Below, piece after piece: positions 36,001 to 39,000 of a stretch of DNA of 64,000 bases. Source of the DNA: Microcoleus sp. (GTDB taxonomy: Bacteria; Cyanobacteriota; Cyanobacteriia; Cyanobacteriales; Microcoleaceae); assembly GCA_042408215.1 (NCBI GenBank), contig JAYFMW010000028.1, positions 160,001-224,000 of the forward strand. Reading direction: 5' to 3'. Made by a program: the position numbers. Positions within the stretch are counted from its first letter, which is position 1. Every line of letters begins with the position of its first letter.

Positions 36001-39000
36001 CGTCCAAGATTTTTGTGGCAGTTGGGCAACAGTGGCTTCATCAGTTTCTGGTGTGGCTAAACTTGTGACTGTTGGTGGTTGAGTCGATAGCAGATCGAGA
36101 TCGGAGCTCGCAGCAGTGGTTGGGGAATTCATAAAAACCTCACGGAAGTTTGGAAACCCAGCGGCTTGAGCCTAGGGAGGAAAAGCGACACGGGATGCTT
36201 TAGCATCCCTTGAATATTCTTAAAATCCATCAGAAAATTGGGCGGAGCGAAGCGCAGGGTTGAAACCCCGTCCTAAAAGGACGGCTTTGTTTGATTCGAT
36301 AAATTAGTTGCCTACCTCTTGCGAGGTGGAGGGGTATGGTTGCCCCTCCCTTGGAGATATGGTTGTCTCCATTTTTTCCCTTTCGGGTAATGTTCGCTTC
36401 GCCAATGTTATAAGAGCTTTTTACGCTGAAAGCACTGTTCCAGTGACCTTAGAACTGTTTAACTAGCAGCGACAGAGCAAGGGACTAGCGTCGCATCCCA
36501 GGGTGTCTTGACTCAAATAACGTAGTCAGCTAAGACTTAGGCTGGTCAGAATGGCTTGTTTGATTACTCTTGCAAGCCCCGTCCCTTAAGGGCGGGGTTC
36601 CTGACCTTGTCGGAAACCTCAAAATGACTGGTCGAATAGATAGTTTATCAAAAATTTGGGTTTCCTGATGTACTTGAAAATGCACTTGTTCTTTATAGGG
36701 CGATCAAGTAGGGGCGATCGAGCTGTGAGAAGTTCGATCGCCCGCGATAATTCATCCCCTTGGAAAAGTGAAAGTATCAAAAAAAGGCTAACCGAAAATC
36801 TCTTCCGGCGGCGCCATGTCAGCCCCCATAACCATTCCCCCATGACTGATAGACTTCTTCAAACCCGGTTTAGGCGCTGTTTCTTGGCGTTTCTGAGCCG
36901 GCGCAACAGACGGCGGTTTCACCTGGGTTTGGGGTACCGCCTGAGCCCCCGGCACAACGGGTTGCTGCGACAGCCAAGCCAAACCCCCCACCGCCCCAGC
37001 CATCAAAGCTGTGTAGCCCAGGTACAAATGCACCGGATGCATTTGAAACCCGTCCGTTGACGAGGAGTCGGAAACAGACAAATACGGGTTCACAATTTGA
37101 CTCGGCTCTGGCTTGGGTAAAGCATCCGCCATAGCATGGCCGTCTAGTCCTAAAGCGTCCCCGATCCGGCGGATAAAACCTCTCAGGTAAATATCTTGGG
37201 GCAATTTCTCGATTTCCCCATTTTCGATCGATTCGAGGTGGTGTAGCGGCACCAGAGTTTGATCGTGGAGTTGCTGGAGAGATAAGCAGCGAATTTGCCG
37301 TCCCTGGCGCAATTCTCTCCCCAACTCGCACAAGCAATCTTTCCGCTGTTGAACGGAAGGAGCTGCTGTCTCTTCAGGAGTGTTTTTCTGCCTCTTGGCG
37401 CTTCGACTTGGCTCAGCGACCCTATGACTTGGCTCAGCGACCCTATGACTTGGCTCAGCGACCCTATGACTTGGCTCAGCGACCCTATGACTTGGCTCTG
37501 TTACCCTATGACTTGGCTCAGCGACCCTATGACTTGGCTCAGCGACCCTATGACTTGGCTCAGCGACCCTATGACTTGGCTCAGCGACCCTATGACTTGG
37601 CTCTGTTACCCTATGACTTGGCTCTGTTACCCTATGACTTGGCTCTGTTACCGTATGACTTGGCTCTGTTACCGTATAGCCGAAGGAGCTTCCGGGAGCG
37701 ACTACAGCCAGGGGTGTAGCCAACGGACGCAGTGCCGGTGTCCCTACGGTTTCGTCTGTGGGCGGTTGTTTGCTTTTTTCTGAGGTGTCAGTATCTCGAT
37801 CGCGGTATGTTGTCAAAGAGTCAGTGTCAGATTTTATTTCCGGGGGCGATTCCAAAGTAGCGCTCTTGCGATCGAAGACAGCAGCAGGTAGAGGCGGTTG
37901 CAATTCTGTAACAGCCACGGCGGCGGGAATTCCCGCAGCGAAACTCTCTTTCGAGCATTGGAGTTCAGTTTTATTTTGTTTAGGAAGCCGCTGAAATGCC
38001 AGCTTGACTGCTTCTCTGCTAACAGCCCTAATTAAAATTTCCGCAGCCGAAGCAGCTTCGCCCAACATGGTTTGCAAGCTAGCTAGAGCGTGGCTGTAAG
38101 TGTCGCTACAGAGGAGTTCAGCTTCTATTTGACTGAGGACAGAGCGAAAACTTTCTTCAGAAAATTCAATAGTTCTATGATCTGTCACCCCAGTTGTTAC
38201 CAGAAGAGAGGCATCGGGTTTCAGTGCCATGATATTTATGTAGTCATTGCTAGAAGTTATCTGAGTACGTTCTTCGACAGGTTGACACTGAATCAGGATG
38301 TCGGAATTGGGCCGAAAAGCATGGGGCCGAAAAGCATGGGGCATTGGGCCTTGGGCCTTGGGCCGAAAAGCATGGGGCCTGGGGCCTGGGGCCAAAAGGG
38401 CACTTGTACGCGAGCGTTGCCGAAGTATAGGGTCGAAAGGGCATGGGGCATTAATCTGCTTACTGACTAATAACTACTGACTAATGACTTCTTCCCTATG
38501 CCCAATGCCCTATGCCCAATGCCCTATGCCCTATGCCCCATGCCCTATTCCTTCTGATTACTGTTTGTGTATGCGATCGAGCAACCAAAGAGAACCGACA
38601 ATCCCAACAAAGTGGGCAAAAGTAGCGTGAATGTTGGCCAGCACTACAAATATATCGAGGGGCTGAATGAATCGGCTGAAATCGACTGCTGCGCCGAACA
38701 AAACTTGCGGCTGAGATATAGATTTTACGAACAGCGTACCGCCGATCGCTTCTGCTCCGATCAGCGTCAGCAGCATTCCCGACAAATTGCTGATCAGTGC
38801 AAACCGCACTTCTTGAATGGTGTCTGCCTTTTTCGGGCGGACACCGGTGGCGGGCGATCGTAATTCTCTAGACAAGCGAGTAAAGCGAAAAGCCCGATAG
38901 GCGCTGTAGCCCAGGGCTAACAGCCCGCACACAGCAAAAAATACACCACCCCCCGTTCCAGCACTTGTCTGCCTCGTACCAGGGGCCCCACTCGACAGAG

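What a model noticed while it worked through the whole genome (the two positions that open the first line are those of the whole stretch)
36100..36640. IscB/omega-RNA elements inserted exactly at host start codons
64 HEARO/omega-RNA copies lie in this genome, only 21 beside an IscB gene; the 43 orphans and the full IscB elements end in one of three conserved right ends that abut the ATGA of a host gene's start codon (example: C28:196132-196605 in front of arginine decarboxylase g05452; another: C30:473031-473404 in front of chlB). Boldest reading: this IS family targets, or is retained only at, translation start sites, replaces the native 5'-UTR/RBS of the host gene with its own right end, and so turns housekeeping mRNAs into omega-RNA-mRNA fusions whose guide is the displaced native leader. 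New would be a start-codon niche for OMEGA elements and a natural set of ORF-less omega-RNAs wired to host gene [...]
Evidence so far: rna.tsv: 64 HEARO. Calls 19, 20: 41 of 43 orphans are co-oriented with the next gene downstream (upstream gene: 24 same, 19 opposite); full-length TnpB genes only 100 of 156. Calls 29, 30: right ends A (..TTTCCCACTTACCGAnCTTTTTT), B (..GGACGGGGTTTCAAnCCCATTTTTCTG) and C (..CCAAGGGGGAAGACAG, 72 nt after the IscB stop) are directly followed by ATGA. Calls 36, 37: 69 right-end/ATGA junctions, 45 at a called start or an ORF of 75 aa or more; expectation 16.6% (2380 genes start ATGA, 11958 intergenic ATGA sites), binomial p 3e-19. Calls 25-28: in another Microcoleus species (G006) 19 of 20 fetched HEARO are orphans, 17 co-oriented with the next gene, only 1 at the same gene as here; three empty s [...]
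(Added by a program. Inside this text positions count along the whole contig: contig position 160,001 is position 1 of the stretch shown here. "Call 12" and the like, gene names such as g00115 and contig names such as C1 are that model's own, and its searches are not shown. The text may have been shortened before it was handed on; [...] marks where a part breaks off. The agent that wrote the report below was given it as the finding of a first reader that could run no searches.)

Follow-up and report, generated by a model that had tools for sequence, protein, structure and literature searches.

The report
Guide-RNA mini-transposons parked on start codons
A gene-less copy of a known RNA-guided transposon (IscB family) sits exactly between the leader and the start codon of an arginine decarboxylase gene, and about two thirds of its relatives in this cyanobacterium also sit on start codons, largely because the family's known four-base target, ATGA, contains ATG.

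Summary
Confirmed. Window 36133-36605 (minus strand) is a 473-nt ORF-less derivative of an IscB (ISC, IS200/IS605) transposon. It has a full HEARO/omega-RNA scaffold (167.6 bits) plus a tail. It lies to the base between the native leader and the ATGA start of a single-copy arginine decarboxylase gene; 11 of 11 relatives fetched have the empty site.

Genome-wide I find 63 right-end|ATGA junctions. 43 lie on a start codon or an ORF of 75 aa or more (null 16.3%). 38 of these 43 have Pfam domains, including single-copy rpsP, rplS and chlB. Per ATGA site, start codons are occupied 7.5 times more often than co-oriented sites 1-300 nt upstream.

The N|ATGA target (Kapitonov 2016) and the need for outside transcription of the IscB guide (Meers 2023) are in print. 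My paper searches did not find the start-codon excess, but this scan noted it before in at least nine other genomes.

Across 61 genomes of the genus, omega-RNA-bearing elements sit on ORF starts at 20 of 32 sites. TnpB or omega-RNA-less elements with the same end and target do so at 11 of 38. Tolerance and retention therefore explain the excess better than TnpA targeting. Fusion transcripts and translation from the right ends are inferred, not shown.

The parts
36133..36605 (-). Whole ORF-less IscB-type (ISC) element, 473 nt, 5' terminus GTCA
   Evidence: Absent to the base in 11 of 11 relatives fetched. Similarity to other copies starts at the HEARO start and ends at ATGA. RNA-library contigs of 3 studies skip exactly 36133-36605.
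36387..36605 (-). HEARO / omega-RNA scaffold
   Evidence: RF02033, 167.6 bits against a gathering score of 83, model 1-211 of 211, E 8.6e-36. It is the best-scoring copy in the genome.
36606..36621 (-). Predicted guide position: the last 16 nt of the displaced native speA leader, including its GAGG
   Evidence: Sequence read. That the guide lies directly 5' of the scaffold, outside the element, is taken from Meers 2023 (passages). Guide length and use are inferred.
36231..36386 (-). Tail with B-type end: subterminal hairpin CCGTCC..GGACGG, ending ..AATTTTCTG, here followed by an internal ATGG
   Evidence: Regex and alignment of copies. The hairpin is seen.
36133..36230 (-). 98-nt D extension ending ..CCGTGAGGTTTTT; the functional right end of this copy, carrying a GAGG 6-9 nt before the ATG
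   Evidence: 5 copies in the genome at 89-100% identity, aligned. GAGG lies within -18..-5 in 5 of 5 D ends.
36129..36132 (-). ATGA: the family's target / TAM, and here the start codon plus one base of the host gene
   Evidence: N|ATGA target in Kapitonov 2016 (PMC4810608, passages). TAM TTCAT (the complement reads ATGAA) for GstIscB in Meers 2023.
34123..36132 (-). Host gene, biosynthetic arginine decarboxylase (speA-like), 669 aa, single copy
   Evidence: Pfam Orn_Arg_deC_N, Arg_decarb_HB and Arg_decarbox_C. One tblastn hit in the genome.
36606..36790 (-). Displaced native leader and presumed promoter region of speA, bounded upstream by a terminator-like hairpin (36791-36809) after the preceding co-oriented ORF
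   Evidence: Homologous to the sequence that abuts the ATG in relatives. Terminator-like site. RNA-library contigs of relatives carry 82-94 nt of this leader joined to speA. The promoter itself is not located.

Best explanation
WHAT IT IS. A non-autonomous, ORF-less member of the N|ATGA-targeting ISC (IscB) branch of the IS200/IS605 superfamily. It carries an omega-RNA scaffold plus transposon ends. It is moved in trans by a Y1 TnpA transposase and is possibly served in trans by IscB from the full-length copies.

HOW IT GOT THERE. It inserted recently and precisely 5' of ATGA, which here is the speA start codon.

WHY START CODONS ARE OVER-OCCUPIED. I propose three stacked causes.
(1) Shown: the target contains ATG, and 37% of genes here start with ATGA.
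(2) Inferred: in the sense orientation these elements let host transcription pass, and their last 10-20 bases serve as an adequate translation initiation region. A start-codon insertion is therefore harmless, even before essential genes.
(3) Inferred: the IscB guide lies outside the element. Only copies downstream of an active host promoter make guide-bearing omega-RNA, and only those can be kept or spread by IscB cleavage of empty alleles followed by recombination. In that transcribed, non-coding, sense niche the start codon is by far the commonest ATGA.

A copy just upstream of a start would add a strong false ATG, which may explain why such sites are under-used.
For: IDENTITY.
- HEARO at 167.6 bits.
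- Full-length copies encode RRXRR+HNH proteins of 422-425 aa.
- 20 Y1_Tnp hits in the genome, 19 over the cut-off.
- 5'-GTCA terminus, ATGA target, no duplication, as described for ISC1-1_MA.

PRECISE AND RECENT INSERTION. Empty sites in relatives, including relatives 97-99% identical in the gene: speA 11 of 11, rpsP 4 of 4, rplS 5 of 5, chlB 5 of 5.

REAL STARTS. 38 of 43 junction ORFs have Pfam families. Many domains begin at residues 1-12: S16, L19, EF-G, ChlB, AlaDH, DAHP synthase, FTR alpha.

TOLERANCE BEFORE ESSENTIAL GENES. rpsP, rplS, hisG, speA and chlB are single copy.

RIGHT ENDS AS INITIATION REGIONS. Only 24.6% of native genes have an SD-like 4-mer, so SD-less ends A and B resemble normal starts. 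D carries GAGG in 5 of 5.

STATISTICS.
- 43 of 63 junctions at starts against a 16.3% null.
- Occupancy 43 of 1905 start sites against 12 of 3907 co-oriented sites 1-300 nt upstream: OR 7.5, p 5e-12.
- Those upstream sites against 4 of 8259 anti-oriented sites: OR 6.4.
- 16 of 20 non-start junctions are co-oriented with the next gene, against 46.5% expected: p 0.002.

CONTROL. Same type of end and same target, 61 genomes of the genus, unique sites. Sense HEARO or HEARO-like: 20 of 32 on ORFs of 75 aa or more. Antisense TnpB plus the 365-nt PATE: 11 of 38. Fisher p 0.008.

LITERATURE. Meers 2023 states that IscB omega-RNA biogenesis needs transcription starting outside the element. It also reports an orientation bias for IscB that is absent for TnpB (passages).

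WEAK HINT. RNA-library contigs of 3 studies join 82-94 nt of the leader to speA in relatives.
Against: - A pure 'transcribed sense leader' model predicts equal occupancy per site. Yet sites 1-50 nt upstream are 6 times less occupied than starts: 3 of 785 against 43 of 1905, p 2e-4. The false-ATG explanation for this is untested.
- Elements without an omega-RNA are also mildly enriched: 11 of 38 against 16.3%, p 0.036. 5 of 12 unclassified elements sit on ORFs. Part of the effect is therefore not omega-RNA specific.
- The right-end subtypes of HEARO and PATE copies differ by a base or two, so 'same transposase' is an assumption.
- The genomes are kin and not independent.
- Upstream genes are co-oriented in only 22 of 42 orphans, unlike the pattern Meers reports.
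- The window's scaffold is at best 85% identical to one that lies beside an IscB gene, so service in trans is uncertain.
- No read or contig bridges an occupied junction, and no transcript is shown.
- My gene caller is crude: 5125 genes, and start choice is error-prone.
Confidence: 0.55

Rival explanations
1. Tolerance only. The excess is pure purifying selection. ATGA is hit at random. Copies inside genes, promoters or regulatory leaders are lost. Sense omega-RNA elements are simply the least disruptive passengers at a start codon. Guide transcription and IscB homing play no part.
For: Single-copy essential genes tolerate the elements. Insertions are recent, so there has been little time for long-term homing effects. 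The window scaffold has no near-identical IscB partner. The 365-nt PATE carries a terminator-like hairpin pointing at the ATGA in 23 of 25 copies, which could explain its lower share without invoking guides.
Against: It does not explain why start codons beat other co-oriented upstream sites 7.5-fold. An insertion anywhere between promoter and start separates the two equally. The same crude scan flags terminator-like sites in 16 of 41 orphans, so that contrast is soft.
Confidence: 0.2
2. True targeting. TnpA, or the single-strand DNA state it needs, prefers the sequence or structural context of translation starts (unstructured, A-rich after ATG). Insertions are therefore made there preferentially.
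For: Non-HEARO elements with this target are also above the null: 11 of 38 against 16.3%, p 0.036. The fifth base is A in 33 of 63 junctions, against 41% of ATGA starts and 25% of intergenic ATGA sites. That fits a TTCAT-like five-base target (Meers).
Against: Element content and orientation change the share at starts by a factor of two with the same end type and target, which a transposase preference does not predict. A fifth-base preference raises the null only from about 11% to about 17% by my arithmetic. Published target recognition is by pairing with 4-5 bases (Meers passages).
Confidence: 0.13
3. Exaptation. The orphans are domesticated regulatory leaders: omega-RNA-mRNA fusions whose translation or stability the host, or IscB binding, controls.
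For: The scaffolds of 42 orphans remain above the Rfam gathering score. The copy at the DAHP synthase gene, together with its leader, is 95-100% identical in four genomes whose coding sequence is 90-95% identical.
Against: The window copy and three others are absent from the closest relatives. The DAHP copy is present in only 4 of 61 genomes, and 26 of 26 others fetched have the empty site. That fits a recent spread of one occupied allele, not old conservation. Insertion sites differ between species.
Confidence: 0.05
4. Artefact of gene calling. The junction ATG only looks like a start because the element closes the frame upstream.
For: My caller picks starts by coding score. 4 of the 43 rest on ORF length alone.
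Against: 38 of 43 have Pfam domains, many starting within 12 residues of the ATG. In four loci the same ATG follows an unrelated native leader in every relative fetched.
Confidence: 0.02

Closest known systems
ISC transposons with the N|ATGA target, e.g. ISC1-1_MA of Microcystis aeruginosa (Kapitonov, Makarova, Koonin 2016, PMC4810608; passages read)
   Same: 5'-GTCA terminus. Insertion directly upstream of ATGA without duplication. IscB cargo in full-length copies. Termini shared with TnpB-only IS605B elements. Dependence on a Y1 transposase in trans. Cyanobacterial host.
   Different: The window copy has lost the IscB gene and carries a 98-nt extension behind a B-type end. That paper's main text does not mention start or initiation codons (0 occurrences). 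Its supplements were not read.
GstIscB / ISGst elements and their PATEs (Meers et al. 2023, bioRxiv 10.1101/2023.03.14.532601; passages read)
   Same: TAM TTCAT, whose complement reads ATGAA. The guide is encoded outside the element, so outside transcription is needed. Orientation bias for IscB but not for TnpB. Gene-less derivatives exist. Homing by cleavage of the empty joint is the proposed function.
   Different: Meers reports co-orientation with the upstream gene. Here the upstream gene is random (22 of 42) and the downstream gene is what counts (40 of 42). No start-codon statement was found in the passages I read. Cleavage activity is not tested here.
HEARO RNA (Rfam RF02033; original description by Weinberg et al. 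2009, recalled, not seen: two look-ups failed)
   Same: Full-length match to the covariance model. Many copies per cyanobacterial genome, many of them without the ORF.
   Different: None for the RNA itself. The insertion context is what is examined here.
PATEs / MITE-like derivatives of IS200/IS605 elements (named in Kapitonov 2016 and Meers 2023)
   Same: Short, no protein gene, both transposon ends, mobilised in trans.
   Different: This one keeps a complete guide-RNA scaffold, so it may still be served by a nuclease in trans.

Membership tests
ISC (IscB) transposons of the IS200/IS605 superfamily, N|ATGA group | IscB gene (RuvC/arginine-rich RRXRR region with inserted HNH) | tested here: not met
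   The window copy has no such ORF. Full-length relatives in the genome do: RRXRR and HNH in 3 of 3 tested, and 20 full plus 2 partial among the 64 HEARO copies. The window copy is therefore a non-autonomous derivative, not a full member.
ISC (IscB) transposons of the IS200/IS605 superfamily, N|ATGA group | Omega-RNA / HEARO scaffold at the 5' end, starting at the transposon boundary | tested here: met
   RF02033 at 167.6 bits, model 1-211. Similarity between copies starts at the model's first base.
ISC (IscB) transposons of the IS200/IS605 superfamily, N|ATGA group | Insertion 5' of ATGA, no target duplication, 5'-GTCA terminus | tested here: met
   Occupied against empty sites in 11 of 11 relatives. 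The same holds for rpsP, rplS and chlB.
ISC (IscB) transposons of the IS200/IS605 superfamily, N|ATGA group | Subterminal imperfect hairpins at both ends | tested here: met
   Read from the sequence: CCCCGCCC-TTAA-GGGACGGGG near the 5' end, and CCGTCC-TTTTA-GGACGG and GGGATGC-TAAA-GCATCCC near the 3' end. The second is flagged. Binding by TnpA is not testable here.
ISC (IscB) transposons of the IS200/IS605 superfamily, N|ATGA group | Y1 (TnpA) transposase available in the genome | tested here: met
   PF01797: 20 matches, 19 over the cut-off. Which one serves this family is unknown.
OMEGA RNA-guided nuclease system (functional) | IscB-omega-RNA cleavage of the empty joint (guide plus TAM) | not testable with these tools
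   Only the anatomy is seen. The nearest scaffold beside an IscB gene is 85% identical over 205 nt.
PATE / MITE-like non-autonomous IS200/IS605 derivative | Short, no protein gene, both ends retained, multiple dispersed copies, polymorphic presence | tested here: met
   473 nt. 42 ORF-less copies. Empty sites in relatives.

The most novel reading that the evidence does not exclude
The start-codon niche is an adaptation, not a by-product of ATGA. The right ends of this IscB/omega-RNA family have evolved into portable translation-initiation regions, so the elements can sit on the start codons of essential, well-expressed genes. There they borrow the host promoter to make guide-bearing omega-RNA, whose guide is the displaced native ribosome-binding region. 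With IscB supplied in trans, that RNA drives the insertion through the many chromosome copies of the cyanobacterium. Every occupied gene would then be expressed as an omega-RNA-mRNA fusion, open to control by processing or by IscB binding.
Probability: 0.3. Interest if true: 0.7.

Novelty: new member of a known kind. Interest (0 to 1): 0.45.

Why it matters
The element itself is ordinary. What is worth keeping is the measured pattern. In one genome, about 40 real genes have a structured guide-RNA element as their immediate 5' flank. Among them are single-copy ribosomal protein genes. This share is several times higher than for other transposons with the same target.

If the excess comes from the guide's need for host transcription, it is natural evidence for how IscB elements choose, or survive in, their genomic niche. 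It would also give a ready-made set of omega-RNA-mRNA fusions, and of right ends that act as compact translation starts.

It also matters for annotation. Leaders, ribosome-binding sites and operon structure in such genomes are rewritten by these copies.

Tried and rejected
- RNA EVIDENCE. Only contigs were available. No contig bridges an occupied junction at this locus. The runs hold relatives with the empty site. Nothing can be said here about fusion transcripts, their ends or their levels.
- PROMOTER SCAN of 35950-36950: 0 sigma-70-like sites against 0.9 expected. This is too crude for cyanobacterial promoters to exclude an internal promoter.
- TERMINATOR COUNT. My own count of terminator-like hairpins, sense against antisense: orphans 16 against 21 of 41; PATE 23 against 23 of 25. 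It is inconclusive because the B-type end itself scores as a weak terminator.
- TnpB CONTROL INSIDE THIS GENOME. Only 3 TnpB copies with this target, 2 of them on called starts. Too few, so I moved to the genus sample.
- DOMESTICATION OF THE DAHP-SYNTHASE COPY. Suggested by 95-100% identity of leader plus element. Rejected after finding it in only 4 of 61 genomes, with 26 of 26 others fetched empty.
- hisG AS A SIMPLE INSERTION. Rejected. It is a roughly 60-nt solo right-end remnant behind a conserved upstream block.
- WEINBERG 2009. Could not be read.
- PAPER SEARCHES for a start-codon statement found none. Supplements of Kapitonov 2016 and Meers 2023 were not read and might bear on it.
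Full report
THE OBJECT. Rfam finds one HEARO RNA in the window, at 36387-36605 on the minus strand: 167.6 bits, model 1-211 of 211. 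Read on the minus strand, the sequence starts GTCAGG at 36605. It runs through the scaffold and a 254-nt tail and ends ..CCGTGAGGTTTTT at 36133. It is followed at once by ATGAATTCC, the start of a 669-aa ORF at 34123-36132. That ORF has the three arginine decarboxylase domains and is single copy. No IscB-sized ORF follows the scaffold.

PROOF OF INSERTION. I searched 30 relatives with the first 400 bases of the gene and fetched the 11 best same-genus loci. In 11 of 11, the sequence that lies upstream of GTCAGG in this genome abuts the ATG directly..GAGGTTTCCGACAAG|ATGAGTTCC. So 473 bases were inserted between leader and start codon. Nothing was duplicated or lost. The insertion is absent even from relatives 97-99% identical in the gene. 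Contigs from RNA libraries of three studies also carry the empty joint, skipping exactly 36133-36605, with 82-94 nt of leader attached to the gene. These come from relatives. They are only a hint that the insertion point lies in transcribed leader.

THE FAMILY IN THIS GENOME.
- The genome has 70 HEARO matches, 64 over the gathering score.
- By tblastn with the genome's own IscB proteins, 20 of the 64 are followed by a full IscB, 2 by a partial one and 42 by none.
- Three IscB ORFs tested carry RRXRR and HNH domains.
- The genome has 20 Y1 transposase matches and at least 150 TnpB matches.
- All-against-all comparison shows that similarity between copies begins at the first base of the HEARO model and ends at ATGA.
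- There are four right-end types. D occurs in 5 copies.
- All 29 exact matches to the 15-nt A core are followed by ATGA, 28 of them after 8-9 bases (my count).

START CODONS.
- I built a crude self-trained gene caller: 5125 genes, 1902 of which start ATGA.
- Of 67 regex matches to the four ends I dropped four. Two were chance matches inside genes. Two were internal B ends of composite copies.
- Of the remaining 63 junctions, 39 are at a called start and 43 at a called start or an ORF of 75 aa or more.
- 38 of these 43 ORFs have Pfam families at E 1e-5 or better. In many, the domain starts within 12 residues of the junction ATG. They include ribosomal proteins S16 and L19, EF-G, ChlB, HisG, signal peptidase, an ammonium transporter, CemA, DAHP synthase and the ferredoxin-thioredoxin reductase alpha chain.
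- rpsP, rplS, hisG, chlB and speA are single copy.
- Empty sites in relatives confirm precise start-codon insertion for rpsP (4 of 4, 431 nt), rplS (5 of 5, 989 nt) and chlB (5 of 5, 374 nt).
- hisG is different. It has a roughly 60-nt solo A-type end behind a conserved upstream block.

IS IT MORE THAN CHANCE?
- Among 17439 ATGA sites that are at a called start or outside called genes, 2841 (16.3%) open an ORF of 75 aa or more. 43 of 63 against that null gives p 5e-20.
- Occupancy per site: 43 of 1905 start sites; 3 of 785 co-oriented sites 1-50 nt upstream of a gene; 12 of 3907 within 300 nt; 4 of 8259 anti-oriented sites.
- Starts beat the 1-300 nt class 7.5-fold (p 5e-12). That class beats anti-oriented sites 6.4-fold (p 5e-4).
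- Of the 20 non-start junctions, 16 face a co-oriented gene downstream, against 46.5% expected (p 0.002).
- There are thus two layers: a sense-upstream bias, and a further spike exactly at the start.
The downstream gene is co-oriented for 40 of 42 orphans and the upstream gene for 22 of 42.

WHAT IS ALREADY KNOWN.
- Kapitonov et al. 2016 describe ISC transposons of Cyanobacteria and Proteobacteria with 5'-GTCA termini that insert at N|ATGA, and TnpB-only elements that share their termini and target. Their main text never mentions a start codon (passages and term counts).
- Meers et al. 2023 give TTCAT, the complement of ATGAA, as the TAM of GstIscB. [quoted passage not shown] They report that IscB, but not TnpB, is co-oriented with the upstream gene, 'preferentially generated ... 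or preferentially retained'. They also describe gene-less PATEs (passages).
- Six paper searches found no statement of a start-codon niche.
- Earlier notes of this scan report the same landing in at least nine other genomes, from phages to an Asgard archaeon. I treat these as leads. They led me to the Kapitonov paper.

TARGETING OR RETENTION? Elements that share the target but differ in content separate the two readings.
- This genome has only three TnpB copies with this target. I therefore searched 61 genomes of the genus for the B-like end joined to ATGA.
- There were 130 matches in 46 genomes. I fetched 110 junctions. 99 had enough flank.
- I merged junctions whose downstream flanks match, so that each insertion site is counted once.
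- Sense HEARO elements: 16 of 27 sites on an ORF of 75 aa or more.
- Antisense TnpB elements: 4 of 13.
- A 365-nt gene-less family with a TTGACATCC 5' end: 7 of 25.
- Others: 9 of 17.
- Rfam then showed that five of the 'others' carry sub-threshold, full-length, sense HEARO-like RNAs of 34-39 bits.
- After that regrouping: sense omega-RNA elements 20 of 32, defined non-omega elements 11 of 38 (Fisher p 0.008), unclassified 5 of 12.
- The non-omega elements are still somewhat above the null (p 0.036). The fifth base of the target is A in 33 of 63 junctions, against 25% of intergenic ATGA sites.
- My reading: a modest part of the excess is general, from a five-base target and from selection against other sites. 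The larger part depends on carrying a sense omega-RNA. That points to what happens after insertion.
- Caveats: the genomes are kin, the end subtypes differ slightly between classes, and the regrouping was made after the first count.

MECHANISM: SHOWN AND INFERRED.
Shown:
- precise, recent insertions at ATGA
- real start codons
- single-copy essential genes behind the elements
- the statistics above
- the class difference

Inferred:
(a) Host transcription reads through the element in the sense direction. No sigma-70-like promoter was found in the window copy, and its two terminator-like hairpins point the other way.
(b) The last bases of the element serve as the translation initiation region. 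This is plausible because only 24.6% of native genes have an SD-like 4-mer, and the D end brings GAGG in 5 of 5 copies.
(c) The displaced leader supplies the guide. Copies fed by a host promoter are kept or spread by IscB homing, as Meers et al. proposed for retention in general.
(d) Sites just upstream of a start are avoided because the right end plus ATG would create a competing start.

None of (a)-(d) is tested here.

A LEAD THAT DID NOT HOLD. The copy at the DAHP synthase gene is shared by four genomes. Its leader plus element are 95-100% identical, while the coding sequence is 82-98% identical per 100 nt. Only 4 of 61 genomes have it, and 26 of 26 others fetched show the empty site. This looks like recent spread of one occupied allele rather than an old, conserved leader.

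VERDICT. The element is a new member of a known kind. The elements do sit on start codons far more often than chance, and they become the genes' proximal leaders. The evidence favours tolerance and retention over targeting. The core ingredients are published, and the expression claims remain to be shown.

Noticed in passing
window 36133-36230 (-); also G000 C12:73846-73943, C30:557027-557124, C30:231084-231181, C4:3902-3994: The 98-nt D extension always follows a complete B-type end and begins with ATGG/ATGA/ATAG, which looks like a retained old target. The composite has moved as a unit (5 copies). This looks like capture of flanking DNA through use of a downstream alternative end, or a nested mini-element. 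The C12 copy has no HEARO match nearby.
   Followed up: partly
L100, L101, L106, L111, L115, L116, L130 and others (genus loci): A gene-less family of about 365 nt, with 5' end TTGACATCC and a B-like 3' end, inserted at N|ATGA. It is common across the genus (25 unique sites in my sample) and has no Rfam match. It may derive from the TnpB-type elements that share the end.
   Followed up: partly
G000 C29:113166-113571 and L221-L223: The omega-RNA copy at the DAHP synthase start codon occurs in 4 of 61 genomes as one nearly identical allele (leader plus element). In three of them the first 12 bases of the gene (ATGATTATTGTA) are repeated on the left side of the element. That is not expected for this transposition mechanism.
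   Followed up: partly
G000 C6:923549-923610 (-): hisG is preceded by a solo A-type right end of about 60 nt without any HEARO, directly behind a block conserved in relatives. The relatives' own leader resembles the start of that end. Right-end remnants may persist as leaders after the rest of an element is lost.
   Followed up: partly
G000 C28:259537 (-), outside the window: An A-type end abuts an ATGA 34 nt upstream of a 390-aa TnpB ORF, inside the left end of another IS element. One transposon has landed in the leader of another.
   Followed up: no
window 36489-36550 in runs X1 and X7: HEARO fragments reach summed contig depths of 844 and 3920 in RNA libraries, where the speA part has 6.9 and 2.6. 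Contig depths cannot rank genes, and other copies and organisms contribute. Still, the ratio exceeds the DNA copy number of about 64.
   Followed up: no
G000, many contigs (listing): Another dispersed repeat of the form GCACGGGG..CCCCTACAAAA..TTTTCCTGAGA ATGAAAC(A/C)GC is present in at least 20 copies. The bases after ATGA are conserved, so it is a different element, not a junction of this family.
   Followed up: no
window 10298-10354 (-) and 41878-41959 (-): An NsiR1 nitrogen-stress small RNA match (43.3 bits, gathering score 39) and an 82-nt tRNA with a long variable arm (61.1 bits).
   Followed up: no
G000 C17:576435-576663 (-) and C17:577287-577515 (+): Two full-length C-type IscB elements lie head to head, with their omega-RNA starts about 620 nt apart.
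   Followed up: no
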